NCBI GenBank assembly: GCA_964344235.1
Contig: CAYFMJ010000001.1
Location: 288,001-352,000 of the forward strand
Reading direction: 5' to 3'
DNA: 64,000 bases
DNA from: an uncultured Methanosarcinales archaeon
Lineage (GTDB): Archaea > Nanobdellota > Nanobdellia > Woesearchaeales > GW2011-AR9
Shown: positions 4,490 through 56,964 of the stretch, in pieces
How the letters are laid out: every line of letters begins with the position of its first letter
How positions within the stretch are numbered: the first letter of the stretch is position 1
The notes under the pieces: model-generated
Databases searched by the model: none
What the model was told of the DNA's origin: nothing
Seen by the model: the letters and a program-made list of their open reading frames with translations, nothing else
Program-made: the position numbers and the translations under genes

Positions 4490-5741
4490 CTGGTGGGTTG
4501 TTGTTTTGTATTCGTAATTTCTTAATTCCATAAATGTTTAGTGCGATTTTTATGATAATAGTGATCGCTGTAGCGATTGGAGCTCCAATGATGCCCCATG
4601 CTGAAATGAGTAAGACGTTGAGTAATGTGTTGATAATCAGTGAGATTGCGAAGTCTGCTACGAGAATTTTCATGTACAGTGGAGAGTATTCGTTTTCTCC
4701 CACAAAAATAGAGTTGAAGTAGGAGTAAAGAACAAGAAGTGTTGAGGAAATAACTAGCGCAATTGGTAAGTATGTTGCGGAGTAGCCTGCACCATATAAA
4801 ATCGGAACGAGGATGTAGCTTCCTGCCAAAACGAGAAGTGCGAATGGGATAAGTAATTTGAAGATTCTTTTAAGAGATTGTTTTAACCTATAATGATGAA
4901 TTGCAGCCATCGGCACAACGACCATCGGAAAGACATAGCCCAGTAATCGGATGGTGTTAGTGATAGAACCGTATGCTGAATACAAACCAAGACTGGTGAA
5001 ATCAACGAGGTATTTAATCGTGATGGCGTCAGCAAAGCGAAGTGAGTAGAAGCTTACCTGCATTAGGAATAATGAGAGGGCGAGGATGAAGAATTTCTTG
5101 AAAGGTGTTGATTGTTGTAATTGTGGTTTGGGAAAATGTTTGAGAATTTGTGGAATGCTGGCAACGGTTGCAATGAGGAGTGCTATGGAAAAGCTGATGA
5201 GAACATAGGTGAATGGGAAAAGATACAATGCAAGTAAGACGATGAATAGTATGACAAATATCCTGTTGAGTAATGAGTACATGGAAGCACTGACAAATTT
5301 CTGCCAACCACGTAGTATGTTGTAGGAGATGTAATGGAGTGTGTAGAACACTATGTAGAGAGTAAATGCGAGGTTGAAATATGGAAGTTGTGGGTTAAGA
5401 TGGGTATATGTAGTGATGGTTATGGTGATCAGGATGAAGAAAATCGTAAATGGAGTTAAGAGGGTGAGTGCGTGTCTCAGTGAATTTCGTAATCGATGTG
5501 GGTTTTTGATAATAATTTGAGTGATTGCATCAGGAATACCAAAGGAGGTGAATAAAAACACGAGGCTCACAAGGCTGAAGAAGTATGTGAAAATTCCTAA
5601 TTCTTCTTGTCCGTAGAGGCGGGCAATAAGAATTTTTATGAAGATGATGGTTAAGGCAATAAACCCATAGATGAAGAATGTTTTGAATAAATGGGCGCGT
5701 GTTTCGCCACCAAGAGTGAGTTTTTTAATTTTTTGAATCAT
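4437..5741 (-). CDS. Wzx/MATE-type oligosaccharide flippase
   Basis: About 12 hydrophobic segments; ARLYGQEELGIF; LGLYSAYGSI; WGIIGAPIAT. Confidence 0.82.
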   Translation of the reverse strand: MIQKIKKLTLGGETRAHLFKTFFIYGFIALTIIFIKILIARLYGQEELGIFTYFFSLVSLVFLFTSFGIPDAITQIIIKNPHRLRNSLRHALTLLTPFTIFFILITITITTYTHLNPQLPYFNLAFTLYIVFYTLHYISYNILRGWQKFVSASMYSLLNRIFVILFIVLLALYLFPFTYVLISFSIALLIATVASIPQILKHFPKPQLQQSTPFKKFFILALSLFLMQVSFYSLRFADAITIKYLVDFTSLGLYSAYGSITNTIRLLGYVFPMVVVPMAAIHHYRLKQSLKRIFKLLIPFALLVLAGSYILVPILYGAGYSATYLPIALVISSTLLVLYSYFNSIFVGENEYSPLYMKILVADFAISLIINTLLNVLLISAWGIIGAPIATAITIIIKIALNIYGIKKLRIQNNNPPVTPQEKPASPSPDQTPQ

Positions 5742-5755
5742 CTGTTGTTATTCTG

Positions 5756-6241
5756 TTATTCTCTTTTTGTTTTTCTAGTTTTTGTTTTTGCAAGGAATGA
5801 ATGGATTTCTTCATGAATAGTGTGGGGTGTGGGCGAGTATGAGGCAAAGTTGTGTGTCTCGGCTTTCTGAATACACTCAGCGAGTTGTTGTGGTGTGTCA
5901 CAATATAGTAGGCCGTCTGTTTCTTGTGCAATGGCTTGCAGAAACTCTACTTGGTGGCGCGGATCAGTTCTGTTTCTGTTGGGGATACCAATTAATTTCT
6001 TTCCCATTTTGAGAATTTCAAAGATACAACCGGGTCCACCGTGACTGATGATTACGTCTGCTTGCTGTTCATACTTTGTTAATGGTGCTTCAAACGTAAA
6101 CCAGTTGCAATGTTGTGGTTTGTATTCTCCATGGCCGAGTTGGATAAGAACGTCGTCTTTGATAACTCCCGTGGATTTTAATCTATCAATCTCTTTGACG
6201 AGTTCTTCAAATTTTCCGTTTCCTACTGTGACGAAGAGCAT
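5756..6241 (-). CDS. Alg13/PssE-like GT28 C-terminal (nucleotide-sugar-binding) subunit
   Basis: MLFVTVGN, VIISHGGPGCI, PNRNRTDPRHQVEF. Probable start ATG 6241 (ORF track 6283). Confidence 0.85.
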   Translation of the reverse strand: MLFVTVGNGKFEELVKEIDRLKSTGVIKDDVLIQLGHGEYKPQHCNWFTFEAPLTKYEQQADVIISHGGPGCIFEILKMGKKLIGIPNRNRTDPRHQVEFLQAIAQETDGLLYCDTPQQLAECIQKAETHNFASYSPTPHTIHEEIHSFLAKTKTRKTKRE

Positions 6242-6263
6242 TGTGTTGAATGTCTGATGGGGA

Positions 6264-6767
6264 TTATGACAACCTCCCTGCATGTTTGGCTTTTGGATAG
6301 ACTTTTTTCATACTTTCCCATTGAACGAGGAAGAGATCAGATACAGGGTAGACGAGTTTTCCAGTTTGTGATTTATGGTGGACCCGCACCCATGACTCAA
6401 TAAAGATTGTTTTGATACCCATAACTTTAGCAATCCAGAATAATGGGATGGCAGCGGAAGGGCCGGCACTAATAAACACATCTGGTTTTGCTTTTCGTAA
6501 GATATTGAAGCCTTGAATAGTTGTGGGGAACATGTTGAGGACGACTCTAAAGAGGGATTTATCTTTCATTAACCGTGGATTTTTAATGGTGTGAACTTTC
6601 CCGGGATGGTGGATTTTCTTTGCAGATGTTTGGTCATCATGGCCTACGAGGTATTGAAATTGGTGAGTTGGATCGAGATTTTTTGTTAGTTCCAGTATTT
6701 GTGAAGTGTGGCCGCCCATCCCTAGGTGAATAAGGAGGTTTTTACTGCTGTTTAGCGTGGTACTCAT
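6264..6767 (-). CDS. Alg14/PssD-like glycosyltransferase subunit
   Basis: LGMGGHTSQI, KPDVFISAGP, IFIESWVRV, DLFLVQWE. Probable start ATG 6767 (ORF track 6788). Confidence 0.85.
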   Translation of the reverse strand: MSTTLNSSKNLLIHLGMGGHTSQILELTKNLDPTHQFQYLVGHDDQTSAKKIHHPGKVHTIKNPRLMKDKSLFRVVLNMFPTTIQGFNILRKAKPDVFISAGPSAAIPLFWIAKVMGIKTIFIESWVRVHHKSQTGKLVYPVSDLFLVQWESMKKVYPKAKHAGRLS

Positions 6768-6831
6768 AAAATGGTCTCGGTTCGACAAGATTTATAAAGA
6801 TTTGGAAAAAGATTTTGGAAATGGTGGTTCT

Positions 6832-8583
6832 ATGTTGAGGGCGGCAAGGAAAACTCCGTTGGAAGAAGGAGAGTGTAGGACGATTAGCGCTACTTCTGGG
6901 AACGTTACTGAGAATGGATCCTTAACAGAGACACAGACCGTTTTTGGAGCTACAAGTGAACTTGAGGATGTTACGAAAGAAACCCCTCCCCTGGAAACAC
7001 AAAGAATAAAAGAGCATAAATTTAATTTTCCTAAAGGAAAGACAATTGATTTTTTAAAGGATAAGTATCACCTTATTCTGGTAGCAGTTTTAGTTTTGGT
7101 TCTGCTCACACGCTTGAAATATATTGGTCAAGAAAGTCTATGGAATGATGCAGCTGTTCACTTGTGGTACGTTATAAAAGTTACTAAAGAACCACTGTTT
7201 ATACTTAGTCATGAATATCTGCTTGGAGATTATGCAATCCCACAAACAATTATGACTCTTTTTTACTTTGTTGTTAAAGATGCTCTCACTGCGGGGAAGA
7301 TTGTTGCAGTTTTATATTCTTTAGTGGGAGTTGTCTTAATTTACCTTTTAGGCTCAGAACTTAAAAGTAAATTCGTTGGGGTCATGGCGGCTATCCTTTT
7401 AGCTTTTAATCATATCTTTTGGTTTTACAGCGTAAGGCCTTTGGGAGATTCACCGCTAATGGTTAGTACTATTTTTATCTTCTATTGCATGGTTCGGTTA
7501 GAAAAAGAAAAAACAATGATCTGGGGTTTTCTCACGGGGACCGCCTTCGTTCTCGCACTTTTCCATAAGGTCCAATCCTCTATTTTTATCCTTGGTCTTG
7601 TTCTTTACTATATTCTTTTTAAGCGTAAAGAAATGATTAGAAACAAGCCAACGCTTGTTTCTTGGTTGATACCCGTAGGGACAATTGTGGTGGGGCACCT
7701 TGTCGCTCAGATCTTTTACGGCCGAGATTTGCTTGGAAGATTATTCGGCTTAATGATTTATTTAAGAGGAATGCCTTTTGGATTTGAGGCTGCTGGTATG
7801 CTGGAATGGGTCTTTTCTTGGTATTTAATCCCGTTTGTTTTCTTGGGGGCTTTGTTCGTTGTTTTTTATAAATATAAGAGATTTTATCCGCTACTTGTTT
7901 TAGGGCTTTATTACTGGTTTTACTTTGAGGTTAATGTTGATAATACGCAAGACAGATATGTTTTACCTCTCCTTCCTATAGCAATATTGTTAGCAGTATT
8001 CGCGATAGAAGAGATCGCATCATACCTCTCGATGGTCTTCCCGAAGAAAGTGAAATCTATCCTAAAGCATGTGATTGTTATTGCTGTTGTTTTGCTCTTA
8101 GCTTTGAATTATTATCAAGTTGGTGATCCTTTGATTTATAATAAATCGTTTAGTTACACTGGCCATGCAGAAGCAGGTCAGTGGATGAAAGAGAATATTC
8201 CTGAGGAGACCCCGATTTTTGCTGGTTCGTATCGTTTTGTTCGTTTGTTTACTGAGCGTGAGTTTGGTGGGCCGGCGGAAGAATCTTTTGGAGGATCAAT
8301 TTGGAACCTACGGGCAGAAAAAGTATATGCATCAAATCGGACTGCCTTTGAGGAGGATCTTTTGCGTCTTTCTCAAGAGAGCGATGTCTATTTGGAAATT
8401 GACCACATTGAATACACTCAACCAAGTTGGTATTATCCATTGACTGAAGATAGCGTTAGCTACTTCGCTTCTCTTGGTTTTAACTTAGTGCATGTTGTCA
8501 ATGGAAAAGTGCTGACGAACGAGGGGGTTATGGAAACACCGATGATTTTTATCTTTAAAAAAGATAAAGTAGAGTTAGAATGA
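6832..8583 (+). CDS. GT-C fold membrane glycosyltransferase (ArnT/PMT-like)
   Basis: Multi-TM protein; SLWNDAA loop; QDRYVLPLLP; C-terminal soluble domain. Probable start ATG 6832 (ORF track 6757). Confidence 0.75.
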   Translation: MLRAARKTPLEEGECRTISATSGNVTENGSLTETQTVFGATSELEDVTKETPPLETQRIKEHKFNFPKGKTIDFLKDKYHLILVAVLVLVLLTRLKYIGQESLWNDAAVHLWYVIKVTKEPLFILSHEYLLGDYAIPQTIMTLFYFVVKDALTAGKIVAVLYSLVGVVLIYLLGSELKSKFVGVMAAILLAFNHIFWFYSVRPLGDSPLMVSTIFIFYCMVRLEKEKTMIWGFLTGTAFVLALFHKVQSSIFILGLVLYYILFKRKEMIRNKPTLVSWLIPVGTIVVGHLVAQIFYGRDLLGRLFGLMIYLRGMPFGFEAAGMLEWVFSWYLIPFVFLGALFVVFYKYKRFYPLLVLGLYYWFYFEVNVDNTQDRYVLPLLPIAILLAVFAIEEIASYLSMVFPKKVKSILKHVIVIAVVLLLALNYYQVGDPLIYNKSFSYTGHAEAGQWMKENIPEETPIFAGSYRFVRLFTEREFGGPAEESFGGSIWNLRAEKVYASNRTAFEEDLLRLSQESDVYLEIDHIEYTQPSWYYPLTEDSVSYFASLGFNLVHVVNGKVLTNEGVMETPMIFIFKKDKVELE

Positions 8584-9515
8584 ATCCCAGAAAGTATGCG
8601 ACAATTCAAGTAGATTTAGATGGCTTATGGACAAATTTAGCGTATTATGGTTATGACCACCCTGTGGAAGATGACCCTGTATTTGCCAGTTCAGTACCTC
8701 GTTTTATTGAATTGTTCAAAGAATTTGATGTTAAAGCAACATTTTTCTTGATAGGCAGGGATGGAGAGGTGCCTTGGAAAGCAGAATTGGTAAAAAAATT
8801 GGTCGAGGCAGGGCATGAAGTTGCTAACCATACTTACAATCACCCTTTTGGTTTACGAAAGTTGCCTCAACAAGAGCAAGTTACAGAGATTGAACGAGGA
8901 GAAGAAGTAATCAAAAAGATTACTGGGAAAAAACCTCGTGGATTTAAAGCTCCAGGGTATGACATGGACGCAGGAGTTTTGCGGTTATTAGCAGAGAAGG
9001 GGTATAGGTACGATTCTTCAATGATTCCAACGTTTGTATACCCGATGATTATGAAGATGATGCAACTCATTTCGGGTGGGGCAAAACGGACGCACGGGCC
9101 AAAGTGGAGTTGGGCGTTTGCTCCGAATACTGTCTATCGGCCGTCAGGTCATAAAGAGTCAAGACGAGGAAAGATGCCCCTGGTAGAGTTGCCGTGCACA
9201 GTTGTCCCGGGGTTGCGGTTACCGTACCATGCAACGTTTGCATTGCGGTTAGGTATGCCTTACTTTTCACCAGCATATGGGCTTACAAAGATGACTCGCG
9301 GGACGTTGAATTATGAATTTCACGCTGTTGATTTAGCAGATGATATTACTGATGATAGATTGACACACGTCAAGGGAATACCTCTTAGTAAAAGGATTGA
9401 ACGTTGTCGAGCGATCGTCAAAAAGATGGTAACTCACTATGATGTTGTTGTGTCTGAGGATTTAGTGCAGGAGGTTCAGCAAGGAAATGGTTTGCTCTCT
9501 ACTCGCAAAAGATGA
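8580..9515 (+). CDS. Polysaccharide deacetylase (NodB/CE4 fold; ArnD-like position)
   Basis: IQVDLD, KATFF, HEVANHTYNH, GFKAPG, YDSS, EFH motifs. Confidence 0.85.
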   Translation: MNPRKYATIQVDLDGLWTNLAYYGYDHPVEDDPVFASSVPRFIELFKEFDVKATFFLIGRDGEVPWKAELVKKLVEAGHEVANHTYNHPFGLRKLPQQEQVTEIERGEEVIKKITGKKPRGFKAPGYDMDAGVLRLLAEKGYRYDSSMIPTFVYPMIMKMMQLISGGAKRTHGPKWSWAFAPNTVYRPSGHKESRRGKMPLVELPCTVVPGLRLPYHATFALRLGMPYFSPAYGLTKMTRGTLNYEFHAVDLADDITDDRLTHVKGIPLSKRIERCRAIVKKMVTHYDVVVSEDLVQEVQQGNGLLSTRKR

Positions 9516-10542
9516 TGAGGAACAGTACGACCGGTATGTTAGTAATGTTTCCAACGCTGGTTTTGAATATACTTTGCGTTGGCGCGATATTCTTCAACGT
9601 CATTTTGGTTTTCGCTCGCGATGTATCATCGCTAAGGACGAAGAAGGTAAGATTGTAGGGGTTCTGCCATTATTCCAAGCTCGAGGCATATTTGGTAAGA
9701 AGCTCGTTTCTTCTCCATACGCGATTTATACGGGCATGTTGGCAGATAATGGAGTGGCGAGAGAAGAGATGATGCATTTTGCAAAACAGTTGTCGATTCA
9801 GGAACGTGTAAAATTTTGTGAGGTTCGTGAACAGTTTCAAGATGATTCCTATATTAAAAGAGGGTTTAGGGAAAACAGTACTGTGTTCAATTTCTCGCTT
9901 GCCTTATCTTCTGATGTCGATGCCGTCTGGAAGAAATTGCCTAAAGGGAGCGTGCGTTGGGGGGTCAAGAAAGCCCAAAAGAGTGGCTTGCAGTGGCGTT
10001 GTGGTATTAGTGAGCGGGAGCTGCAAGGTTTTTATGCTTTGTTTCTTCAGACACGCAAACTGCGGGGTGTTCCGGGATATCCTTATGCCTATTTCAAAGA
10101 AATTCTCTCGACATTTGGGGAGAATGCGAGAATTTACGTTACTTCATACGAGAATAAACCTGTTGCTACAATCTTCTTGATATATCACAAGAATGAAGTG
10201 CGATATGCTTTTGCAGGAGCAGTTCACGATAAAACAATCATGCAATTGCAACCGTACCATCTTATAATGTGGGAAGCAATTAAAGATGCGTGTAACAGAG
10301 GGTATACAACGTTTAACTTTGGTGGTGCTACACTGCAAACAAATGATGGCGGGTTGTATAATTTTAAGAAGAGATGGGCAGATACGGTTGGGAAAGCGTA
10401 TTCGTATTATTTCCTTCATACAATGAAAGAAGTTCCCTCAAGCGACACTGCATTTTTTGCTTTGGCCACGAAACTATGGAGGAAGCTGCCTCTGTCGGTT
10501 GTTGATACGTTAAGTCCTTTTGTGATACGGCAATTTGTTTAA
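9487..10542 (+). CDS. FemAB-like GNAT acyl/aminoacyltransferase
   Basis: GVLPLF, VRWGVKKAQKSGL, FNFGG, GLYNFKKRW. Confidence 0.8.
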   Translation: MVCSLLAKDDEEQYDRYVSNVSNAGFEYTLRWRDILQRHFGFRSRCIIAKDEEGKIVGVLPLFQARGIFGKKLVSSPYAIYTGMLADNGVAREEMMHFAKQLSIQERVKFCEVREQFQDDSYIKRGFRENSTVFNFSLALSSDVDAVWKKLPKGSVRWGVKKAQKSGLQWRCGISERELQGFYALFLQTRKLRGVPGYPYAYFKEILSTFGENARIYVTSYENKPVATIFLIYHKNEVRYAFAGAVHDKTIMQLQPYHLIMWEAIKDACNRGYTTFNFGGATLQTNDGGLYNFKKRWADTVGKAYSYYFLHTMKEVPSSDTAFFALATKLWRKLPLSVVDTLSPFVIRQFV

Positions 10543-10571
10543 GAGGAATATTTGGCGGATGATAAAGTCTA

Positions 10572-11621
10572 ATGAAATATACAATAACAATGTTAAGTGA
10601 GGAGGATCACGAGCTGTATGCGCAGTTTGTTAGTAGCTGCCCTGATGCCCTTTATGAACATTCTTTAGCTGTGAAAGATTTGGTTCAAAGATATTTTAAG
10701 TTTGAACCGAGATATATTGTGGCGAAGAATTCAGTTGGACAAATTGTTGGGGCTTTGCCGTTGTTTAAAGCGAAGAGTTTTGTGGAAGGAACACGCCTCG
10801 TTTCTATCCCATTTTTTCCATATGGCGGCGTGATTGGGGAGAGTGATGAATGTAAACGTTTGCTGTTAGAGGAAGCCAAGAAGTTGTCAAGTACAAGTAA
10901 GTTCTTGGAAATGCGTCAACATGGTGAACTCTCGGCGGAAGTTGCTCGAGGTTTTGTAAGACAAGCCCCGATTATTAATTTTTATCTTGACTTGAAAGAG
11001 TCCGAGGAGGAGATGTTACAATCGTTACATAAAAGTGTGCGATATGATATTCGAAAAGCACAGAAAAATAATTTGCAATTTTCTATGGGGGATACAACCA
11101 AGTTGCTCAATGATTTTTATGATGTGTATCTGAACACGCGGAAGAGAAGAGGTGTACCGGCGTGGCCAATGGGGCTCTTTAAAGAGGCATTGAAAACATG
11201 TGATACAAAAGTTGCGGTGACATACCATGAAGGAAAACCAATTGCTGGTTGCTTTTTATTTTTTGATAAAAAGACAATTGAATATGCTTTTGCGGGGACT
11301 GACTATCGGCACTCTGCGCTTTGTCCATATTATCTCTTACTGTGGGAGATTATTTGTTATGGAATCAAGCAAGGTTACACTGTTTTAGAGTTGGGTGGAA
11401 CGACTAAAGTTATGAATGAGGGGAATATGTATTCTTTCAAGAAACGGTGGAGTACGAAAACTGAAGAGATCCCTTACTACTTTTATGCACGTGAGGAGAA
11501 AAATATTCCTGTGTTACAGAATTCATTTAAAGTGTATACTCTCTATGGTAAAGTTTGGAGTTTACTGCCGAAGTGGTTGATAAAAAAAATAAGTCCGCCA
11601 ATTATACGGCAATTTAGTTGA
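10572..11621 (+). CDS. FemAB-like GNAT acyl/aminoacyltransferase (tandem paralog)
   Basis: GALPLF, VRYDIRKAQKNNL, LELGG, MYSFKKRW. Confidence 0.8.
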   Translation: MKYTITMLSEEDHELYAQFVSSCPDALYEHSLAVKDLVQRYFKFEPRYIVAKNSVGQIVGALPLFKAKSFVEGTRLVSIPFFPYGGVIGESDECKRLLLEEAKKLSSTSKFLEMRQHGELSAEVARGFVRQAPIINFYLDLKESEEEMLQSLHKSVRYDIRKAQKNNLQFSMGDTTKLLNDFYDVYLNTRKRRGVPAWPMGLFKEALKTCDTKVAVTYHEGKPIAGCFLFFDKKTIEYAFAGTDYRHSALCPYYLLLWEIICYGIKQGYTVLELGGTTKVMNEGNMYSFKKRWSTKTEEIPYYFYAREEKNIPVLQNSFKVYTLYGKVWSLLPKWLIKKISPPIIRQFS

Positions 11622-11644
11622 TGATGTGGGGAGTGAAGGTATAA

Positions 11645-12649
11645 ATGGTTTCCGTCAAACAAAAATTACAACAAACGTTATGTTCGTATCTTGGTGTTCG
11701 TCATGCAGTGCTATTTAGTTCTTGCAGGAATGCGTTGCATACATTATTAGTTTCATTACAGTTGGGGGGGGGAGAGGTTATCGTGCAGGATTTTATTTGT
11801 GATAGCTTAAATCAAGCGATTGAGAACGCAGACGGCACAGTTGTCGGTGTTCCGGTGGACGAAAAAACGTTTAACCTTTCTGCAGAAACGGTTGAACAAT
11901 ATATTACGCCAAAAACGAAGGCAGTTCTCTTCGTTCATACGTACGGGAATCCAACGGGTATTGCTGAGGTTGCAACACTTTGTCAAGATAAGGGTATTGT
12001 TTTGGTTGAGGATATTGCCCATGCTTTGGGCGCTGTTTGTCAGGGGAAAAAAGCAGGGACGTTTGGACAATATGCAGTGTATAGTTTTACAAAACAATTA
12101 GTTAGTGGTGGTGGTGGAGCAGTACTTACGAATGAAGATACGACAGCACTAGTTAAAGAACGTGATCGACATTCAACGAGTGCGCCCATTCTGGGTTACG
12201 TGAAACGCGTGATGGCTTCTCTCTATGAGACAAGAGCGTTTTTTCTTTCAAAGATTCTGATTGATGTCGCTCGAAAGAAAGCGGATTTGAAAATGACGAA
12301 TGCTCTTGATAGACATTATAGTTGTTCTTCGATTGAAGCATGGATGATTCTGCGGCAATTGAATGGCTTGGAGAGGTTGGTGGAGAAGAGACAGCGAAAT
12401 TATCGTTATTGGTCAACACTTGTGAAGACACAAGCGGTTATGAATGGTTGTGAATCTAGTTGCAATTATTTAACAATTATTTTTTCCAGCCGTAAAAATC
12501 GAGATAAGGCTGTGGCTCAAAGTCGTTTTTTACTTCCCCCCTGGCCTGGTTCAAATGTTTCTGAAAAGATTGCTTTTGTGCCTAATAATCCTGCTTTTAC
12601 ACAGAAAAAGTTACGAATAATCGCTGGAGCGAGTACAAAAGATTTATAA
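11645..12649 (+). CDS. Divergent, shortened DegT/DnrJ/ArnB-family PLP aminotransferase
   Basis: VHTYGNP, EDIAHALG, YSFTKQLVSGGGG (candidate Schiff-base Lys). Confidence 0.7.
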   Translation: MVSVKQKLQQTLCSYLGVRHAVLFSSCRNALHTLLVSLQLGGGEVIVQDFICDSLNQAIENADGTVVGVPVDEKTFNLSAETVEQYITPKTKAVLFVHTYGNPTGIAEVATLCQDKGIVLVEDIAHALGAVCQGKKAGTFGQYAVYSFTKQLVSGGGGAVLTNEDTTALVKERDRHSTSAPILGYVKRVMASLYETRAFFLSKILIDVARKKADLKMTNALDRHYSCSSIEAWMILRQLNGLERLVEKRQRNYRYWSTLVKTQAVMNGCESSCNYLTIIFSSRKNRDKAVAQSRFLLPPWPGSNVSEKIAFVPNNPAFTQKKLRIIAGASTKDL

Positions 12650-12657
12650 GGAACTCT

Positions 12658-13029
12658 TTGCGGATGAGAATTGAGATGAAAGATAATACAAAAGCGGTGC
12701 TTCTGGCTTTAGTTGTAACAGTTATTGTCTCTGTGTCTCAGATTCTCTTGAAATTTGGTAGTGAACAGTTTGAATTTTCATTGAATCAAATTACAAATTA
12801 TCCTCTTATTGTTGGAGGGGTGTTGTATGTTTTAGGAGCTTTTGTGTTGATTAAGGCGTTTCGTCTCGGTGAACTTTCTGTTGTGTATCCTGTTATGGCA
12901 TCAAGTTATATTTTAGTGACACTGTTATCTGTGCGTTATCTTGGTGAGATTATTACAACACAGAAGTGGGTTGGATTAGCTTTAATTACAATCGGAGTTG
13001 TATTTATTGGTAGGGGGGGTTCACAATGA
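12658..13029 (+). CDS. SMR/EamA small membrane protein (ArnE/ArnF-like)
   Basis: Four TM helices; QILLKFG, ELSVVYPVMASSYI, LGEIITTQKWVG. Confidence 0.78.
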   Translation: MRMRIEMKDNTKAVLLALVVTVIVSVSQILLKFGSEQFEFSLNQITNYPLIVGGVLYVLGAFVLIKAFRLGELSVVYPVMASSYILVTLLSVRYLGEIITTQKWVGLALITIGVVFIGRGGSQ

Positions 13030-13358
13030 GTTTAGTTACCGGGCTGTTCTTTTTGCTGATTTCTTCAATAATTGGCGCGTTTAGTACGCTTCTTTTTAAG
13101 ACTGGGTCTCGGTTTAAAATTAGCATTCGAAATAATCACCTCATTGGGGCAGTTGTCCTTGCGGCTTTTTCGTTTGTGTTTTACATTCTTGCGTTACAAC
13201 AAGCGCCGTTGACGTTCATTTATCTGACTGCTTCTATTAGTTATATTTGGGCGATAATCCTGGCTAAAAGTATTTTGAAAGAAAAGATTAACAGAAATAA
13301 AATCATTGGAGTATCCCTTATTATCATCGGTATTGTTGTTCTTAATTTCCCATTCTAA
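13026..13358 (+). CDS. SMR/EamA small membrane protein, second subunit (ArnE/ArnF-like)
   Basis: Four TM helices; LKEKINRNKIIG; overlaps the preceding SMR gene by 4 nt. Confidence 0.75.
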   Translation: MSLVTGLFFLLISSIIGAFSTLLFKTGSRFKISIRNNHLIGAVVLAAFSFVFYILALQQAPLTFIYLTASISYIWAIILAKSILKEKINRNKIIGVSLIIIGIVVLNFPF

Positions 13359-13407
13359 TGGTGTCCTGTTAAGGAAAATTTATAAATCACGTCTCAGAGA
13401 GGCAGAT

Positions 13408-14136
13408 ATGAAATTATCGATTGTTGTTCCGTGCTATAATGAGGAGGAAGGTGTTGAAAACCTCTCACAGAAGCTTGAACCGATTCTCCAGGAATTGCAA
13501 AAGGAGTGGCAGTTAGAACTTATTTTTGTTGATGATGGAAGCAAAGATAGAACGTACGACTTATTGCAGCAGTATTTTGGTGAGAAAGAGTATGTCAAAA
13601 TTGTGAAGCATGAAGTCAATAAGAATATTGGTGCTGCGATGCGAACGGGGTTTTCACATTCAACGGGAGATGTTATTGTGACTATGGATAGTGATTGCAC
13701 GTACGATCCGCAAGAAATCTTTGCGATGCTGGGCCTTATGAAGGATGGTGCTTCAATTGTTACGGCTTCACCATATCACCCTCAAGGGGGTGTGAGGAAT
13801 GTTCCTCTTTACAGAATTTTTCTGAGTAAAGCTATCACTCAAATTTATAGAACACTTACTGGCTCGAAGATTTACACGTTTACTGCTCTCTTTCGAGCCC
13901 ATACTCGTGATGTTGTAGATACGGTTGCTTTCCAAGCTGATGATTTCCTCGCTACTGCAGAAATGTTAATCAAAGCGTCAATAGCAGGTCATAAAATTCA
14001 AGAGCATCCCAGTGTTCTCAATGTAAGAGAATATGGTGTTTCTAAAATGAGATTGTTACAAGTGATTGGGAATCATGCAAAGTTTGTGGGAAAAGTTGCA
14101 TCGCTGCGCTTCCGTGGTAGTTTTAGAAAAAAGTAG
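13408..14136 (+). CDS. GT2 polyprenyl-phosphate glycosyltransferase (DPM1/ArnC-like)
   Basis: SIVVPCYNEE, FVDDGSKD, VTMDSDCTY, REYGVSKM. Probable start ATG 13408 (ORF track 13306). Confidence 0.85.
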   Translation: MKLSIVVPCYNEEEGVENLSQKLEPILQELQKEWQLELIFVDDGSKDRTYDLLQQYFGEKEYVKIVKHEVNKNIGAAMRTGFSHSTGDVIVTMDSDCTYDPQEIFAMLGLMKDGASIVTASPYHPQGGVRNVPLYRIFLSKAITQIYRTLTGSKIYTFTALFRAHTRDVVDTVAFQADDFLATAEMLIKASIAGHKIQEHPSVLNVREYGVSKMRLLQVIGNHAKFVGKVASLRFRGSFRKK

Positions 14137-14149
14137 AAGGTTTGGAGTT

Positions 14150-15250
14150 ATGAAAATAATTACGATTCTAGGAACAAGGCCAGAAATCACGAAACTTTCT
14201 CCCGTCTTACCGCTGCTTGATGAAGCATTTGATCATAAAGTCATCCATACTGGCCAGCATTATGACTATAAAATGGATGAGATTTTTTTTGAGGAATTGC
14301 AATTGCGGAAACCAGATTATATGTTGCATGTGGGGAGTGGGAGTCATGCTGAAATGACTGCAAAGATGTTAATTGAGATTGAAAAAATTCTTGTTGCAGA
14401 GAAGCCAGATTGGGTGATTGTGTTTGCCGATCCTAACACTCCGCTTGCAGGGGCGTTAGCAGCAGTGAAGTTACACATTCCTGTGATTCACATGGAAGCA
14501 GGGTGTCGTTCTTTTAACAAAAAGATGCCGGAAGAGATTAATCGAATTGTGTGTGACCATTGTGCAGACTTGTTGCTAGCTCCAGATGAAGTGGCTAGGG
14601 GCAACTTGTTACGAGAGGGTTTGCCTGAAGAGAAGATTGAGGTTGTTGGCAGTACAGCACTTGAAGCGGCGTTGCGGAATGTGGTAATTGCGCGTGAGAA
14701 GTCGAAGATTTTGGAAGAGCTGGGGCTGGTTGATGGCAAATATGCCCTTCTAACAATTCATCGAGCAGAGAATACTGATAATGCAGAAGTGTTGTGTGGT
14801 TTAGTGGGTGCAATGAATAAAATTGCTGAAAAAATTCCGATTGTATTTCCAATGCATCCCCGTTTTGTCAAAGCGTTGCAGCGTGAAGGGTTGCAGTTAT
14901 CAGAGAAGATTCACGCGATTGAGGCAGTTGGTTATGTAGACATGTTGATGTTGTTGGATAATGCATTATTTGTGATGACTGGGTCTGGCGGGTTACAGGA
15001 AGAAGCAGCAGCGTTAGATACGCCTTGTCTTGTGATTCGGAATGAAACAGAGTGGACGTATTTAACTGATGCAGGGAAAAATTTGTTGGTTAGTAATGAT
15101 GGTGGTAAAATAGTGAATGTGGTCACTGACCTGCTTGACCACCCTGAAAAGCTTACTAATATGAAGAATGTTCAATTAACTTTAAATACGGATGTTTCCC
15201 GAAATGTAGTTGATGCAATCAAAAGAAATTGTTCAACGAAAGACGCTTAA
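14150..15250 (+). CDS. wecB: Non-hydrolysing UDP-N-acetylglucosamine 2-epimerase (WecB/WbpI family)
   Basis: ILGTRPEITK, HTGQHYD, HMEAGCRSF, MPEEINR, HRAEN, SGGLQEEA. Start ATG 14150. Confidence 0.92.
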   Translation: MKIITILGTRPEITKLSPVLPLLDEAFDHKVIHTGQHYDYKMDEIFFEELQLRKPDYMLHVGSGSHAEMTAKMLIEIEKILVAEKPDWVIVFADPNTPLAGALAAVKLHIPVIHMEAGCRSFNKKMPEEINRIVCDHCADLLLAPDEVARGNLLREGLPEEKIEVVGSTALEAALRNVVIAREKSKILEELGLVDGKYALLTIHRAENTDNAEVLCGLVGAMNKIAEKIPIVFPMHPRFVKALQREGLQLSEKIHAIEAVGYVDMLMLLDNALFVMTGSGGLQEEAAALDTPCLVIRNETEWTYLTDAGKNLLVSNDGGKIVNVVTDLLDHPEKLTNMKNVQLTLNTDVSRNVVDAIKRNCSTKDA

Positions 15251-16205
15251 AGGTAAGAACGTTTTAGTGACTGGTGGTGCTGGCTTTGTTGGTGGGCATT
15301 TAGTTGATAGGCTCATTGAGGAAGAACCAGCTTCTATTGTTGTTGCGTCTAATTTCTTTTTAGGAAGCATTTCAAATTTAGATGATGCGCTGAAACGGTT
15401 TCCCGTTAAAATTGTACGGTGTGATGTTGCTGATTTTGAAGAGATTAAAGACGCAATCGTTGATAATGATATTGAAGTTGTGTTTAATTTAGCAGTCATA
15501 CCTCTGCCAACCTCGCTTGTAAAACCGGAATGGACTATTCGAAAAAATATTGAGATGACAATTAATATTTGCCAGTTGTTGCGGGAAAAGAAGTTTAAGA
15601 CGTTAATTCAATACTCCTCTTCCGAAGCATTTGGTTCAGCACAATACGTGCCGATGGACGGGAAACATCCACTTGACCCTGAAACGCCGTATGCAGCTTC
15701 CAAAGCAGCAACAGATCATATTGCGTTATCCTATCATCACACGTTTGGCTGTGACGTTGCTGTGGTGAGGCCGTTTAACCAATATGGGCCGCGGCAGAAT
15801 GTTAAGAAGTATGCAGGAATAATTCCATTAATGGTTGGCAAGATGGTGCGAGGCGAGGATGTGACGATTTTTGGTGATGGGGAACAAACGAGAGATTTTA
15901 TGTACGTGGGAGATACAGCAGATTTAACCATTGAAGTTTACAAAAACCCTGCAAGTCGAGGAAGAGTTATTAATGCAGGTAGTGGCCGGGAAGTTTCAAT
16001 CAAAACTGTTTTAACAAAGATGGCAGATATTTTAGAGTATACAAAACCGTTTGTGCATCTCGATGCACGACCCGGTGATGTGAGGAGACACTGTTCTGAT
16101 ATTTCTGAAGTTAGGGAAGTGCTAGGATGGGAGCCGAAAACTTCGTTTGAGGAAGGGCTTCGTAAAACGGTTGAATGGTACCGTGATCATCCTGAGGTTT
16201 TTTGA
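15210..16205 (+). CDS. NAD-dependent nucleotide-sugar epimerase/dehydratase (extended SDR)
   Basis: VTGGAGFVGGH, SSSEAFG, YAASK, RPFNQYGP, GDGEQTRDF. Confidence 0.88.
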   Translation: MMQSKEIVQRKTLKGKNVLVTGGAGFVGGHLVDRLIEEEPASIVVASNFFLGSISNLDDALKRFPVKIVRCDVADFEEIKDAIVDNDIEVVFNLAVIPLPTSLVKPEWTIRKNIEMTINICQLLREKKFKTLIQYSSSEAFGSAQYVPMDGKHPLDPETPYAASKAATDHIALSYHHTFGCDVAVVRPFNQYGPRQNVKKYAGIIPLMVGKMVRGEDVTIFGDGEQTRDFMYVGDTADLTIEVYKNPASRGRVINAGSGREVSIKTVLTKMADILEYTKPFVHLDARPGDVRRHCSDISEVREVLGWEPKTSFEEGLRKTVEWYRDHPEVF

Positions 16206-16750
16206 TGATTCATTCGACAGCAGATGTTTCTCCAGAAGCAGTGTTGGGGAAGAATGTAAAAGTGTGGCACCAATCGCAGGTACGGGAGAAAGTGATTATC
16301 GGTGATAATTGTATTTTAGCAAAGAATGTGTATGTTGATAAAGATGTAGTTATTGGCAAGAATTGTAAAATTCAAAATAATAGCTCTCTGTACCATGGGG
16401 CGTTGTTAGGAGATGGCGTATTTATTGGCCCACATTGTGTTTTGACAAATGACAGATATCCTCGCGCTGTTACAGTTGATGGGGATTTGAAACAGGATAC
16501 TGATTGGGAAGAAGGAAAAGTTGTGATTAAAGGGGGGGCGTCCTTGGGTGCGGGGGTTATTGTGTTGCCGGGAGTTACAATTGGAAAGTATGCACTCGTG
16601 GGAGCAGGGAGTGTTGTTGCGAAAGACGTTCCTGATTTTGGGTTAGTGTATGGTAACAGAGCGGAGTTACGGGGATTTGTGTGTAAGTGTGGGAAGAAGC
16701 TAGCTGTTGGTAAGATTGGCGGGGAGATGTGTGAGGAATGTTTAGAATAG
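16202..16750 (+). CDS. wbpD: Hexapeptide-repeat N-acetyltransferase (WbpD-like)
   Basis: IHSTADV, KIQNN, FIGPHCVLTNDRYPRA, GAGSVVAKDVP. Confidence 0.82.
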   Translation: MMIHSTADVSPEAVLGKNVKVWHQSQVREKVIIGDNCILAKNVYVDKDVVIGKNCKIQNNSSLYHGALLGDGVFIGPHCVLTNDRYPRAVTVDGDLKQDTDWEEGKVVIKGGASLGAGVIVLPGVTIGKYALVGAGSVVAKDVPDFGLVYGNRAELRGFVCKCGKKLAVGKIGGEMCEECLE

Positions 16751-24072: not shown

Positions 24073-24166
24073 GTGCTAGTTGAGGATATTCTCTTTTTAA
24101 TTCTTATGAAAAATATGTTGTTTATTTCTACACAACCTTCTATGGAGTTGCTATCTTCTTAGAAAA

Positions 24167-56961: not shown

Positions 56962-56964
56962 TTT

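What the first reader, a model, noticed from the sequence alone, without database searches (positions are those of the whole stretch)
6832..14136. Arn-like lipid-carrier operon with FemAB-like transferases in place of the formyltransferase
Seen, all on the + strand: GT-C (ArnT-like), CE4 deacetylase (ArnD-like), two FemAB-like GNATs, DegT aminotransferase (ArnB-like), SMR pair (ArnE/F-like) and GT2 (ArnC-like). Established: the bacterial arnBCADTEF pathway makes an amino sugar, N-formylates it, loads it on undecaprenyl-P, deformylates it, flips it with an SMR pair and transfers it to lipid A. Archaea have no lipid A, and no ArnA formyltransferase is present here. Inference: an undescribed analogue that N-(amino)acylates an amino sugar via FemAB enzymes, loads it on dolichol-P, optionally deacylates it, flips it and transfers it to an S-layer glycan or lipid.
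Basis: partly seen in the sequence, partly recalled or inferred. Interest (0 to 1): 0.82.

Follow-up and report, generated by a model that had tools for sequence, protein, structure and literature searches.

The report
FemAB cassette in archaeal sugar-carrier operon
A tiny uncultivated (DPANN/Woesearchaeota-type) archaeon carries a conserved operon that appears to build a sugar on a membrane lipid carrier, strip off its acetyl group, attach amino acids from charged tRNA, flip it outward and paste it onto the cell surface; this sugar chemistry has not been described, and related genes sit uncharacterised in many bacterial slime (exopolysaccharide) loci.

Summary
Observation confirmed. All genes are present as described, tightly packed on the + strand (6832-14136), and the operon continues to 16750.

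The set recurs. Among 17 distinct Woesearchaeota/Nanoarchaeota-type loci, CE4-FemAB adjacency holds in 17/17. A GT-C lies beside CE4 in 15 of 16 assessable loci. The DPMS/ArnC-like GT2 is present in 15/17. The full gene order is kept in 11.

Interpretation partly supported. The system logic fits a lipid-carrier route: cytoplasmic tailoring, flippase, then GT-C. However, no gene reaches an Arn equivalog score.

The FemABs do not stand in for a formyltransferase. A relative (L044) has GT-C, flippase, GT2 and WecB with nothing between. In the window, CE4-Fem1-Fem2-shortDegT-SMR pair sits exactly in that slot, so it is an inserted tailoring cassette.

Three unrelated flippase candidates (SMR pair, MprF-TM-like PF03706, GtrA) occupy the same position in different genomes. 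The short DegT always travels with the SMR pair and is fused to it in three protein clusters.

The FemABs keep the catalytic Phe-Lys of FemX. Their nearest named relatives, with the CE4, are the uncharacterised WecB-deacetylase-FemAB trio of bacterial exosortase EPS loci.

Most likely product: a Dol-P-linked, de-N-acetylated, N-aminoacylated hexosamine. The chemistry is inferred, not shown.

Verdict: new variant of a known kind; interest about 0.7.

The parts
6791..6798 (.). TTTATAAA box in the 64-nt divergent intergenic region between the Alg14-like gene and the GT-C gene; candidate shared archaeal promoter element
   Evidence: Sequence read; GGTGG at 6823-6827 precedes ATG 6832. Promoter function is inferred.
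6832..8583 (+). GT-C glycosyltransferase (GTC1), PMT_2 family, polytopic membrane protein with a C-terminal soluble domain
   Evidence: Pfam PMT_2 40.7 bits; at least 8 TM by hydropathy; invariant E101/S102/W104/D106 after TM1 in 16 homologues; AF2 pLDDT 74, and all top Foldseek hits are GT-C enzymes: STT3, ALG12, ArnT, DPY19, PglB, AglB. No PDB sequence hit at E<=1.
8580..9515 (+). CE4 (NodB-type) de-N-acetylase, predicted cytoplasmic
   Evidence: Polysacc_deac_1 88 bits, DUF2334 26.7 bits; best NCBIfam TIGR03006 XrtA-system deacetylase 72 bits, ArnD only 26 bits; top PDB hit H. pylori PgdA 3qbu, with the D-x-D and H-x4-H motifs aligned; no TM or signal peptide.
9487..10542 (+). FemAB-like double-GNAT transferase Fem1 (always adjacent to the CE4)
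   Evidence: FemAB 73.8 and Acetyltransf_6 59 bits; TIGR03019 PEP-CTERM FemAB 192 bits, cut-off 260; aligns to FemX(Wv) with F293-K294 on F304-K305; K294 invariant and F293 at least 90% conserved in 28 sequences; CE4-Fem1 adjacency 17/17 loci.
10572..11621 (+). FemAB-like transferase Fem2, paralogue of Fem1 (37% identity)
   Evidence: Pfam and NCBIfam as for Fem1; Fem2 clade 100/100, sister to the Fem1 clade; present in 13/17 loci.
11645..12649 (+). Short DegT-family PLP enzyme (sDegT), about 35 residues shorter at the N-terminus with a diverged C-terminal domain
   Evidence: DegT 161 bits over profile 27-259; SF..K Schiff-base Lys aligned; K150, D123 and E122 invariant; AF2 pLDDT 88.8 and Foldseek TM about 0.75 to sugar aminotransferases; tight DPANN-only orthologue clade; always occurs with the SMR pair, and fused to SMRa in P0063, P0067 (= L029:3384-4796) and P0091.
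12658..13029 (+). Small 4-TM EamA/SMR-like membrane protein SMRa (flippase candidate, subunit 1)
   Evidence: EamA 32.7 bits; ArnE 29.7 and ArnF 25.8 bits, below cut-offs; 4 TM.
13026..13358 (+). Small 4-TM EamA/SMR-like membrane protein SMRb (flippase candidate, subunit 2)
   Evidence: EamA 37.3 bits; best NCBIfam ArnE 43.9 bits, cut-off 92; 4 TM; 32% identical to SMRa.
13408..14136 (+). Soluble GT2 of the polyprenyl-phosphate sugar synthase group (DPMS/ArnC/GtrB-like catalytic domain, no TM helices)
   Evidence: Glycos_transf_2 105.7 bits; top PDB sequence hits Pyrococcus DPMS 5mlz (6e-27), ArnC (1e-21), GtrB (3e-16); orthologues of 237-258 aa in 15/17 loci. The ATG at 13408 is chosen from orthologue lengths.
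14150..15250 (+). Non-hydrolysing UDP-GlcNAc 2-epimerase (WecB/WbpI-like)
   Evidence: TIGR00236 334 bits, over cut-off 210; follows the GT2 in 15 loci; also precedes CE4-FemAB in bacterial exosortase loci.
15213..16205 (+). SDR 4,6-dehydratase-like enzyme (variable member of the operon)
   Evidence: Epimerase and GDP_Man_Dehyd; LegB-like 216 bits and RmlB 208 bits, below cut-offs; orthologue present only in L034 and L035.
16205..16750 (+). Left-handed beta-helix N-acetyltransferase (WbpD-like)
   Evidence: Hexapep 97 bits; conserved after WecB in most loci.
18707..20751 (+). Full-length DegT aminotransferase plus Gfo/Idh/MocA oxidoreductase (WbpE/WbpB-like pair), the probable supply route for a 2,3-diamino sugar
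   Evidence: Pfam 428 bits and 108 bits; syntenic downstream in L014, L020, L022, L023, L029, L034. The pathway assignment is from established knowledge of Wbp enzymes.
20744..22414 (+). Second PMT_2 GT-C (GTC2), syntenic partner downstream
   Evidence: PMT_2 56 bits; orthologue follows the cluster in L013, L014, L015, L030, L034, L035.
4437..6767 (-). Divergent neighbour operon: Alg14-like, Alg13-like, Wzx-type flippase (a Dol-PP-oligosaccharide route and a possible source of the acceptor glycan)
   Evidence: Pfam Alg14 101 bits, Glyco_tran_28_C 59 bits, Polysacc_synt 52 bits; adjacent in the window and in 8 of the other 16 Fem-bearing loci.
54900..57702 (.). Second, smaller copy of the theme: short DegT (54900-55946 +), FemAB-like Fem3 (55909-56961 +), CE4b (56965-57702 -)
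   Evidence: Pfam; Fem3 is 26% identical to Fem1; followed by AsnB, a TM-bearing ArnC-like GT2 and AglH.

Best explanation
The operon is a three-component dolichyl-phosphate sugar glycosylation system carrying an inserted tailoring cassette.

The core has three parts: a soluble DPMS/ArnC-type GT2, a small membrane flippase, and a GT-C transferase acting on the outer face.

Proposed route:
(1) WecB, with the neighbouring Wbp-like enzymes, supplies a UDP-N-acetyl-hexosamine of ManNAc type.
(2) The GT2 loads it onto Dol-P at the cytoplasmic face.
(3) The cytoplasmic CE4 removes an N-acetyl group and exposes a free amine.
(4) Fem1, and where present Fem2, transfer one or two amino acids from aminoacyl-tRNA onto that amine. 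This uses FemX/MprF-type chemistry.
(5) The short DegT, which is tethered to or fused with the flippase in relatives, makes a further PLP-dependent change, probably adding an amine.
(6) The SMR pair flips the product.
(7) The GT-C transfers the aminoacylated amino sugar to a surface acceptor, probably an N-glycan or the S-layer.

Shown: gene identities, topology, conservation of catalytic residues, co-inheritance and the cassette-insertion pattern.

Inferred: every substrate, the order of steps 2-5, use of tRNA, and the acceptor.
For: Unit and cassette: across 17 distinct archaeal loci, CE4-Fem1 are adjacent in 17/17. A GT-C lies beside CE4 in 15/16 assessable loci. The GT2 orthologue is present in 15/17, and the full order is kept in 11. 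In L044 (G072) the order is GTC1, PF03706 flippase-like, GT2 (56% identity), WecB (72%), with no CE4, Fem or sDegT. The window has CE4-Fem1-Fem2-sDegT-SMRa-SMRb in exactly that slot.

Three-component logic: the GT2's best solved relatives are all polyprenyl-P sugar synthases, and the GT-C fold is confirmed. Three non-homologous flippase candidates occupy the same slot: the SMR pair, PF03706 and GtrA_DPMS_TM.

Topology: CE4, Fem1, Fem2, sDegT and GT2 have no TM or signal peptide, as expected for steps that need tRNA and UDP-sugars.

FemAB chemistry: F293-K294 align with FemX F304-K305, and K294 is invariant. Lys305 is the catalytic residue in FemX, and the equivalent Phe328/Lys329 of DhpH-C were validated by mutagenesis (PMC12945691). 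One family member is fused to a SerRS tRNA-binding arm.

Deacetylation on a lipid: GpgSDF and HexSDF show a GT, then a deacetylase acting on lipid-linked HexNAc, then a PF03706-type flippase (PMC12713373 and PMC10128005).

sDegT at the membrane: it co-occurs only with the SMR pair, its orthologues are found only in genomes that also have Fem1 and Fem2 (5/5), and it is fused to SMRa in three protein clusters.
Against: There is no biochemical evidence for any step.

Bacterial exosortase loci carry WecB-CE4-FemAB without a GT-C or an ArnC-like GT2. The shared substrate of CE4 and FemAB could therefore be a UDP-sugar or a PP-linked repeat unit rather than a Dol-P-sugar.

Two loci (L013, L015) have GT-C-CE4-Fem1-Fem2-GT-C with no GT2, WecB or small flippase within 10 kb.

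The PF03706 protein also occurs without FemAB (L044), so it says nothing about an aminoacylated cargo.

The GT2 lacks the TM or interface helices of ArnC and GtrB.

The short DegT has no conserved partner that would make a keto substrate for it, so its role is unexplained.

Topology rests on a simple hydropathy scan only.
Confidence: 0.55

Rival explanations
1. Two independent pathways share one island. CE4 and the FemABs tailor a sugar at the UDP level, or on the Dol-PP-linked N-glycan built by AglH/Alg13-14 and exported by Wzx and AglB. The GT2, SMR pair and GT-C are a separate AglD/AglS-like Dol-P-hexose branch.
For: Alg14-Alg13-Wzx lie divergently next to the cluster in the window and 8 of the other 16 Fem-bearing loci, with AglB nearby. 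Bacterial exosortase loci have WecB-CE4-FemAB with Wzx/Wzy-type machinery and no GT-C. FemX(Wv), the closest solved relative, acts on a UDP-linked substrate. L013 and L015 lack the GT2 and a small flippase.
Against: A GT-C is beside CE4 in 15/16 assessable loci, including those without Alg13/14 nearby (L014, L020, L022, L023, L028, L034). The cassette sits between the GT-C and the GT2 of a pre-existing unit. sDegT is fused to the small flippase.
Confidence: 0.2
2. N-acyl exchange without tRNA. The FemAB-like proteins are GNAT-type N-acyltransferases that use acyl-CoA or an acyl carrier protein, so the acetyl removed by CE4 is replaced by another acyl group rather than by an amino acid.
For: The Acetyltransf_6 (GNAT) match is as strong as the FemAB match. 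The same island holds an adenylating enzyme and a phosphopantetheinyl transferase. No tRNA dependence has been shown for the PEP-CTERM FemAB family; the literature searches found nothing.
Against: The double-GNAT architecture and the invariant Phe-Lys of aa-tRNA-dependent transferases are kept. One family member carries a SerRS tRNA-binding arm.
Confidence: 0.12
3. The literal Arn analogue proposed by the first reader. The short DegT makes a UDP-amino sugar. The FemABs N-acylate it as a transient protecting or driving group, as ArnA formylates. The GT2 loads it on Dol-P. CE4 then removes the acyl group before flipping.
For: Gene-for-gene parallel with arnB/C/D/T/E/F. sDegT and the SMR pair are co-inherited, as ArnB and ArnE/F are linked through a cationic product.
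Against: CE4 and Fem1 are the invariant adjacent pair, and they occur without sDegT in 6 of 17 loci. Two tRNA-dependent enzymes would be a costly transient protecting group. CE4 is much nearer to N-acetyl de-acetylases than to ArnD (72 against 26 bits). No conserved keto-sugar-forming partner for sDegT is present.
Confidence: 0.08
4. The end product is a free membrane glycolipid, an aminoacyl-hexosaminyl lipid in the manner of HexSDF, GpgSDF or MprF, that alters surface charge rather than serving as a donor for glycan decoration.
For: The GT + cytoplasmic deacetylase + PF03706 flippase arrangement in set-B loci mirrors GpgSDF and HexSDF. FemAB plus a flippase mirrors the two halves of MprF.
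Against: A GT-C, which uses lipid-linked donors, is almost always adjacent. The GT2 groups with polyprenyl-P sugar synthases and not with the GT4/MGDG-type synthases GpgS and HexS.
Confidence: 0.07
5. The genes belong to a peptidoglycan-like or pseudomurein-like wall pathway, with the FemABs building peptide cross-bridges.
For: Public annotations call the homologues 'peptidoglycan bridge formation glycyltransferase FemA/FemB'. MraY-like AglH, MurG-like Alg13/14 and a MOP flippase are in the window.
Against: No Mur ligase and no PBP transpeptidase are found in this 96%-complete genome, and the controls ring.
Confidence: 0.02

Closest known systems
Bacterial arnBCADTEF (Und-P-L-Ara4N modification of lipid A)
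   Same: The system logic is the same: cytoplasmic tailoring of an amino sugar, a DPMS/ArnC-type GT2, a CE4-superfamily de-N-acylase, a pair of 4-TM SMR-like proteins, and a GT-C transferase on the outer face. The PLP aminotransferase and the SMR pair are co-inherited.
   Different: No protein reaches an Arn equivalog cut-off. There is no ArnA. There is no lipid A in archaea. The GT2 lacks TM helices. The GT-C is not specifically ArnT-like. The system adds one or two FemAB-type transferases and probably starts from a HexNAc.
WecB - PEP-CTERM deacetylase (TIGR03006) - FemAB-related protein (TIGR03019) trio of bacterial XrtA/exosortase EPS loci
   Same: These are the best-scoring named families for both the CE4 and the FemABs. 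The adjacency 2-epimerase, deacetylase, FemAB is the same in L016 and in Rubrivivax, Thauera and Rhodoferax.
   Different: Scores are below the equivalog cut-offs (72/276 and 192/260). The archaeal CE4 lacks DUF3473. This genome has no exosortase. The archaeal version is coupled to GT-C, GT2 and a small flippase instead of Wzx/Wzy/Wza machinery. The bacterial module's function is itself unknown.
GpgSDF (P. aeruginosa) and HexSDF (C. difficile) synthase-deacetylase-flippase operons
   Same: A cytoplasmic GT makes a lipid-linked HexNAc, a deacetylase converts it to HexN, and an MprF-TM/UPF0104 (PF03706) flippase is encoded alongside (PMC12713373, PMC10128005). Set-B loci carry exactly GT2 + CE4 + PF03706, and the window's CE4 also hits DUF2334, the GpgD family.
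   Different: Those systems decorate membrane glycerolipids, use GT4/MGDG-type synthases, and have no FemAB and no GT-C.
FemABX / MprF aminoacyl-tRNA-dependent transferases
   Same: Double-GNAT architecture and conserved Phe-Lys catalytic pair. As with MprF, the transferase is paired with a lipid flippase. As with DhpH, it is paired with a PLP enzyme.
   Different: No peptidoglycan precursor pathway exists in this genome. The acceptor would be a sugar amine, a substrate class not described for this family in the literature I could search.
Three-component polyprenyl-P-sugar glycosylation systems (GtrA/GtrB/Gtr*, CsbB/GtcA/YfhO, Haloferax AglD/AglS, mycobacterial PpgS/Rv3779, Bordetella Lgm, Francisella Flm/NaxD)
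   Same: A GT2 synthase, a small flippase candidate and a GT-C are adjacent. The Lgm, Flm and PpgS systems also de-N-acetylate a polyprenyl-P-HexNAc before transfer (this comparison is from my own knowledge, not checked here).
   Different: None of them includes tRNA-dependent aminoacyl transferases or a membrane-tethered DegT enzyme.

Membership tests
Arn pathway (arnBCADTEF) | ArnA formyltransferase/decarboxylase present | tested here: not met
   No Formyl_trans hit on any ORF scanned in the window. The only genomic copy is on contig C3. The SDR scores 54.6 bits against the ArnA model, cut-off 777.
Arn pathway (arnBCADTEF) | ArnB, ArnC, ArnD, ArnE/F orthology (NCBIfam equivalog cut-offs) | tested here: not met
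   ArnB 92/631, ArnC 91.4/529, ArnD 26.2/382, ArnE 43.9/92, ArnF 28.4/99.
Arn pathway (arnBCADTEF) | ArnT-type GT-C | tested here: inconclusive
   PMT_2 is met. There is no NCBIfam or PDB sequence hit. In Foldseek, ArnT ranks 6th with TM 0.43-0.46, behind STT3 and ALG12.
Arn pathway (arnBCADTEF) | Acceptor is lipid A | not testable with these tools
   Archaea lack lipid A (established knowledge). The acceptor here is unknown.
Three-component polyprenyl-P-sugar glycosylation system | GT2 of the DPMS/ArnC/GtrB group | tested here: met
   The seven best PDB sequence hits are PfDPMS, ArnC (3 sequences) and GtrB (3 sequences). The catalytic domain only is present, with no TM.
Three-component polyprenyl-P-sugar glycosylation system | Adjacent small membrane flippase candidate | tested here: met
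   Two 4-TM EamA/SMR proteins. The slot is filled by PF03706 or GtrA_DPMS_TM in relatives. Flippase activity itself is not testable.
Three-component polyprenyl-P-sugar glycosylation system | Adjacent GT-C with an acidic motif in the first outer loop | tested here: met
   PMT_2, GT-C fold, invariant E101 and D106 after TM1. GT-C/GT2 adjacency also holds in the Fem-less relatives L044, L045, L046 and L048.
FemABX aminoacyl-tRNA-dependent transferases | Double-GNAT FemAB architecture over the Pfam cut-off | tested here: met
   FemAB 73.8 and 60.8 bits (cut-off 24); Acetyltransf_6 59 and 60 bits.
FemABX aminoacyl-tRNA-dependent transferases | Catalytic Lys (FemX K305) with preceding Phe | tested here: met
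   F293-K294 are aligned. K294 is invariant and F293 at least 90% conserved across Fem1, Fem2, Fem3 and bacterial relatives. The role of the residue is taken from PMC12945691.
FemABX aminoacyl-tRNA-dependent transferases | Uses aminoacyl-tRNA as donor | not testable with these tools
   Only indirect hints: conserved residues, and one relative fused to Seryl_tRNA_N.
FemABX aminoacyl-tRNA-dependent transferases | Acts on peptidoglycan precursors | tested here: not met
   No Mur_ligase_M and no Transpeptidase in the 96%-complete genome, and the controls ring.
XrtA/PEP-CTERM EPS deacetylase + FemAB module (TIGR03006/TIGR03019) | Equivalog score cut-offs | tested here: not met
   CE4 71.9/276.2; Fem1 192.2/260.35; Fem2 165.3/260.35. 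These are nevertheless the best-scoring named families.
XrtA/PEP-CTERM EPS deacetylase + FemAB module (TIGR03006/TIGR03019) | Deacetylase-FemAB adjacency with a UDP-GlcNAc 2-epimerase | tested here: met
   CE4-Fem1 are adjacent in 17/17 loci and WecB is in the same operon in 15. The bacterial order WecB-CE4-FemAB is seen in L016 and in PMC3684757.
XrtA/PEP-CTERM EPS deacetylase + FemAB module (TIGR03006/TIGR03019) | Exosortase in the genome | tested here: not met
   No PF09721 match in G000.
DegT/DnrJ/EryC1 sugar aminotransferases | Fold-type I PLP fold with Schiff-base Lys and cofactor Asp | tested here: met
   K150 and D123 invariant. AF2 plus Foldseek gives TM about 0.75 to perosamine synthase, WbpE and ArnB. 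The N-terminal ~35 residues are missing and the C-terminal domain is sequence-diverged.

The most novel reading that the evidence does not exclude
FemAB-family enzymes aminoacylate a sugar amine on a polyprenyl-phosphate carrier using aminoacyl-tRNA. That would be a new substrate class for tRNA-dependent transferases. It would give DPANN archaea surface glycans bearing amino-acid or dipeptide-decorated hexosamines. By homology it would also assign a function to the WecB-deacetylase-FemAB trio of bacterial exosortase EPS loci, which has no assigned function in the literature I could search. The membrane-tethered short DegT would be the first DegT-family enzyme to act on a lipid-linked substrate at a flippase.
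Probability: 0.4. Interest if true: 0.85.

Novelty: new variant of a known kind. Interest (0 to 1): 0.7.

Why it matters
If the model holds, it adds a third arena for ribosome-independent use of aminoacyl-tRNA, beside peptidoglycan bridges and lipid aminoacylation: the decoration of lipid-linked sugars.

It would explain how N-aminoacyl amino sugars can be made.

It gives a testable function for a widespread bacterial gene pair. The wider FemAB-like family has 231 representative clusters at E<=1e-30 and 3,419 at E<=1e-10, and no function was found for the pair in the literature searched.

For DPANN archaea, which live attached to hosts and have minimal genomes, a patchily distributed island that changes surface charge or adds peptide handles is a plausible determinant of host contact.

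The comparative series forms a natural add-on experiment that makes the hypothesis directly testable: the basal GT-C/flippase/GT2 unit, then with CE4 and one FemAB, then with a second FemAB, the short DegT and the SMR pair.

Tried and rejected
1. A blastp of set-B loci with GTC1/GTC2, and a whole-genome search with GTC1, first suggested that four loci lacked any GT-C. That search had no positive control. Repeating it with PF13231 and a control genome found a different ~490-aa PMT_2 GT-C directly beside CE4 in all four, so 'no GT-C' was rejected.

2. I first took the PF03706 (MprF-TM-like) swap as evidence for an aminoacylated lipid cargo. I withdrew that reading when L044 showed the same protein without any FemAB.

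3. The peptidoglycan-like wall reading was rejected: no Mur ligases or PBPs.

4. The search for related loci with the wide FemAB alignment A1 failed because there was no conserved stretch. The narrower A2 worked.

5. P0045, a 'WWE3 bacterium' hit, sits at a contig edge, does not translate to the query, and has pilus genes as neighbours. I treated it as uninformative.

6. The Atlas search for the short DegT returned only generic DegT clusters.

7. Literature searches for FemAB with PEP-CTERM, DPANN, exopolysaccharide or Acetyltransf_6 found no functional study. The LgmC search found only a passing mention.

8. The idea that the FemABs and the short DegT build an aminoacyl-aminophosphonate, as in dehydrophos, was considered. 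Phosphonate genes split the cluster in L011 and lie 25 kb away in the window. It was not pursued because the link is seen in only those two loci.

Full report
WHAT IS THERE.
The window lies in a 1.19-Mb, 96%-complete DPANN genome. Its closest protein relatives are labelled Woesearchaeota, Nanoarchaeota or Nanoarchaeia.

- a PMT_2 GT-C (6832-8583);
- a CE4 deacetylase (8580-9515);
- two FemAB/Acetyltransf_6 proteins (9487-10542 and 10572-11621);
- a DegT-family protein (11645-12649);
- two 4-TM EamA/SMR-like proteins (12658-13029 and 13026-13358);
- a GT2 (13408-14136).

The genes overlap or are 8-49 nt apart. The operon continues with a bona fide WecB (334 bits, over its cut-off), an SDR and an LbH acetyltransferase, ending at 16750. 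A TTTATAAA box and a GGTGG motif precede the ATG at 6832.

The whole 64-kb window is a glycan island. It holds AglB, Alg13/14, two Wzx flippases, AglH, nonulosonic-acid genes, phosphonate genes and a carrier-protein cassette.

IS IT A UNIT?
I gathered genomic context in several ways:
- around homologues of Fem1;
- from a 401-genome sample of the phylum;
- from a scan of 185,579 species genomes.

I then scored every locus for each window protein. There are seventeen distinct archaeal loci, with L014 and L032 being the same DNA.

Counts across the 17 loci:
- CE4-Fem1 adjacency: 17/17.
- A PMT_2 GT-C beside CE4, or one gene away: 15 of 16 assessable loci.
- GT2 orthologue: 15/17.
- Fem2: 13/17.
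- Short DegT together with the SMR pair: 11/17.

In four loci the GT-C is a different ~490-aa subfamily. My first blastp missed it, and a Pfam-based genome search with a positive control recovered it.

The full order, GT-C-CE4-Fem1-Fem2-sDegT-SMRa-SMRb-GT2-WecB-LbH, is kept in 11 loci at 40-60% identity. One of these has phosphonate genes inserted between Fem1 and Fem2.

The cluster is rare and patchy. Fem1 orthologues occur in 11 of 401 sampled genomes, 6 of them among the 41 sampled from the window's own family. Only 13 species genomes in the large collection have one.

THE KEY COMPARISON.
Searching the same 401 genomes with the GT-C found four same-family genomes with strong GTC1 orthologues but no Fem1.

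In one of them (L044) the order is GTC1, a PF03706 LPG_synthase_TM protein, GT2 (56% identity), WecB (72%). The window has CE4-Fem1-Fem2-sDegT-SMRa-SMRb exactly between GTC1 and GT2.

In other Fem-less relatives the GT-C again sits next to a GT2. In L045 a GtrA_DPMS_TM protein is also present.

So there is a basal GT-C/flippase/GT2(/WecB) unit, and the FemAB genes belong to a tailoring cassette added to it. Three unrelated families of small membrane proteins fill the same slot: the SMR pair, PF03706 and GtrA. Each has been implicated elsewhere in moving lipid-linked sugars or lipids. This is what one expects of a synthase, flippase, GT-C system.

The short DegT is the mirror case. Its orthologues form a tight DPANN-only clade and occur only in genomes that also have Fem1 and Fem2 (5/5). 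They always sit next to the SMR pair. In three protein clusters they are fused to SMRa through a low-complexity linker, and L029:3384-4796 is one continuous 470-aa ORF of this kind.

WHAT THE PARTS ARE.
GT2: the best solved relatives are Pyrococcus DPMS, ArnC and GtrB, all polyprenyl-phosphate sugar synthases. It has only the catalytic domain.

GT-C: there is no sequence hit in the PDB. The AF2 model (pLDDT 74) matches only GT-C enzymes, at TM 0.4-0.47, and ArnT is not closer than STT3 or ALG12. Sixteen homologues share an invariant E..D motif after TM1.

CE4: it scores best against the XrtA-system deacetylase model (72 bits) and H. pylori PgdA. It scores only 26 bits against ArnD.

Fem1 and Fem2: both score best against the PEP-CTERM FemAB model (192 and 165 bits; cut-off 260). 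They align with FemX(Wv) so that F293-K294 fall on F304-K305. K294 is invariant in 28 sequences that include Fem3 and bacterial relatives. A 2026 review identifies Lys305 as the catalytic residue of FemX, and Phe328/Lys329 as mutationally validated equivalents in DhpH-C (PMC12945691). Fem1 and Fem2 are sister clades, so the duplication arose within this lineage, and the bacterial types lie outside.

Short DegT: it keeps the Schiff-base Lys and the cofactor Asp. It folds as a complete sugar aminotransferase with TM about 0.75, and perosamine synthase and WbpE rank above ArnB. It lacks about 35 N-terminal residues.

Topology: CE4, Fem1, Fem2, sDegT and GT2 have no TM segment or signal peptide by hydropathy.

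HOW IT MOST LIKELY WORKS.
Putting these together, my preferred model is as follows (about 0.55 overall):
- A UDP-HexNAc of ManNAc type is supplied by WecB and the neighbouring WbpB/E/D-like enzymes.
- The GT2 loads it onto dolichyl phosphate.
- CE4 de-N-acetylates it.
- Fem1, and then Fem2 where present, aminoacylate it from aa-tRNA.
- The flippase-tethered short DegT modifies it further.
- The SMR pair flips it.
- The GT-C transfers it to a surface acceptor.

Two UDP-sugar 6-dehydrogenases lie 7-10 kb left of the window, so a uronic acid form is possible.

Deacetylation of a lipid-linked HexNAc by a cytoplasmic deacetylase, with a PF03706-type flippase encoded alongside, has experimental precedent in GpgSDF and HexSDF. 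The set-B loci carry GT2 + CE4 + PF03706 plus one FemAB and a GT-C.

Every substrate, the order of the cytoplasmic steps, tRNA use and the acceptor are inferences.

The main uncertainty is the stage at which CE4 and FemAB act. Bacterial exosortase loci have WecB-CE4-FemAB without any GT-C or ArnC-like GT2. The shared substrate could therefore be a UDP-sugar or a PP-linked unit.

The role of the short DegT remains unexplained.

COMPARISON WITH THE KNOWN.
The cluster works like Arn at the level of architecture. It is not a member: all equivalog tests fail, there is no ArnA, and there is no lipid A.

It also does not support the reading 'FemAB in place of the formyltransferase', for two reasons:
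- CE4+Fem1 is the invariant pair, and it occurs without the DegT in six loci.
- The pair's closest named kin is the exosortase-EPS trio, for which I found no functional study.

A peptidoglycan-like reading is disfavoured: there are no Mur ligases and no PBPs.

The wider FemAB-like family is large, with 8,431 representative clusters at E<=1e-3 and 231 at E<=1e-30. One member is fused to the tRNA-binding arm of SerRS.

VERDICT.
This is a new variant of a known kind: a three-component lipid-carrier glycosylation system with a tRNA-dependent aminoacylation cassette.

An earlier first-stage note in this scan flagged the same stretch of this same genome (e1-1113955).

Interest is about 0.7. The chemistry is unproven and the archaeal clade is narrow and uncultivated. 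On the other hand, the comparative evidence is unusually clean, the hypothesis is directly testable, and it would also assign a function to a widespread bacterial gene pair.

Noticed in passing
window 54900-61520: A second module with the same theme: short DegT (54900-55946), FemAB-like Fem3 (55909-56961), CE4 (56965-57702, -), AsnB-type amidotransferase (57699-59570, -), a TM-bearing ArnC-like GT2 (59573-60520, -) and AglH/GT4-family (60522-61520, -). The AsnB + deacetylase + FemAB combination again echoes bacterial exosortase EPS loci.
   Followed up: partly
L029:3384-4796; proteins P0063, P0067, P0091: Natural fusions of the short DegT to the first SMR/EamA subunit (470-514 aa, with 4 C-terminal TM helices after an N/S-rich linker). 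This is a PLP enzyme tethered to a putative lipid-sugar flippase.
   Followed up: yes
L022:13222-14211, L023:5886-6863, L028:11826-12812, L044:5165-6175: Stand-alone PF03706 (MprF flippase-domain) proteins replace the SMR pair next to the GT-C in some relatives. In L045 (5617-6075) a GtrA_DPMS_TM protein takes the slot. This is non-orthologous displacement of the flippase candidate.
   Followed up: yes
window 37256-39794; L011:11908-18847: Phosphonate genes: a PEP mutase fused to a cytidylyltransferase, and an Fe-ADH. In L011 the same genes plus a TPP decarboxylase and a radical SAM enzyme are inserted between Fem1 and Fem2-sDegT. A possible link between phosphonate decoration and the FemAB enzymes was not resolved.
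   Followed up: no
window 23377-26424: PglD-like acyltransferase, AMP-binding adenylating enzyme and a 4'-phosphopantetheinyl transferase: a carrier-protein-type acylation kit, unusual for archaea.
   Followed up: no
window 18707-22414: Full-length DegT + Gfo/Idh/MocA oxidoreductase (WbpE/WbpB-like) followed by a second PMT_2 GT-C. With WecB and the LbH acetyltransferase this reproduces the Wbp 2,3-diacetamido-sugar logic. It is syntenic in six other loci.
   Followed up: partly
window 2386-4098 and 46208-48567: Two B12-binding radical SAM enzymes in the island. The second lies next to a PterinBD-DUF4346/ferredoxin protein (47914-48567). The first, with a methyltransferase, is conserved beside Wzx-Alg13-Alg14 in most related loci.
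   Followed up: no
window 29095-35458: NeuB-type synthase, cytidylyltransferase, APH-like kinases and a DegT-SDR fusion (726 aa): a nonulosonic-acid (legionaminic/pseudaminic-type) pathway.
   Followed up: no
G000:C1:278423-281357 (7-10 kb left of the window): Two UDP-sugar 6-dehydrogenase genes just outside the window. They could turn the amino sugars of this island into uronic acids.
   Followed up: no
L012:14041-14691: A DDE transposase is inserted between the SMR pair and the GT2 in one otherwise complete cluster.
   Followed up: no
L021:1676-3823 and 12397-16504: In G393 the WecB is part of a 715-aa fusion protein, and the GT-C is tandemly duplicated.
   Followed up: no
protein P0254: A distant member of the FemAB-like family carries an N-terminal Seryl_tRNA_N domain (30 bits, cut-off 28), the tRNA-binding coiled coil of SerRS.
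   Followed up: partly
loci L033, L035, L036, L040: Several public MAG records that carry this cluster are titled 'uncultured Methanosarcinales archaeon'. Their genes are closest to Woesearchaeota/Nanoarchaeota and the genomes are about 1-1.7 Mb, so the labels are probably wrong.
   Followed up: no
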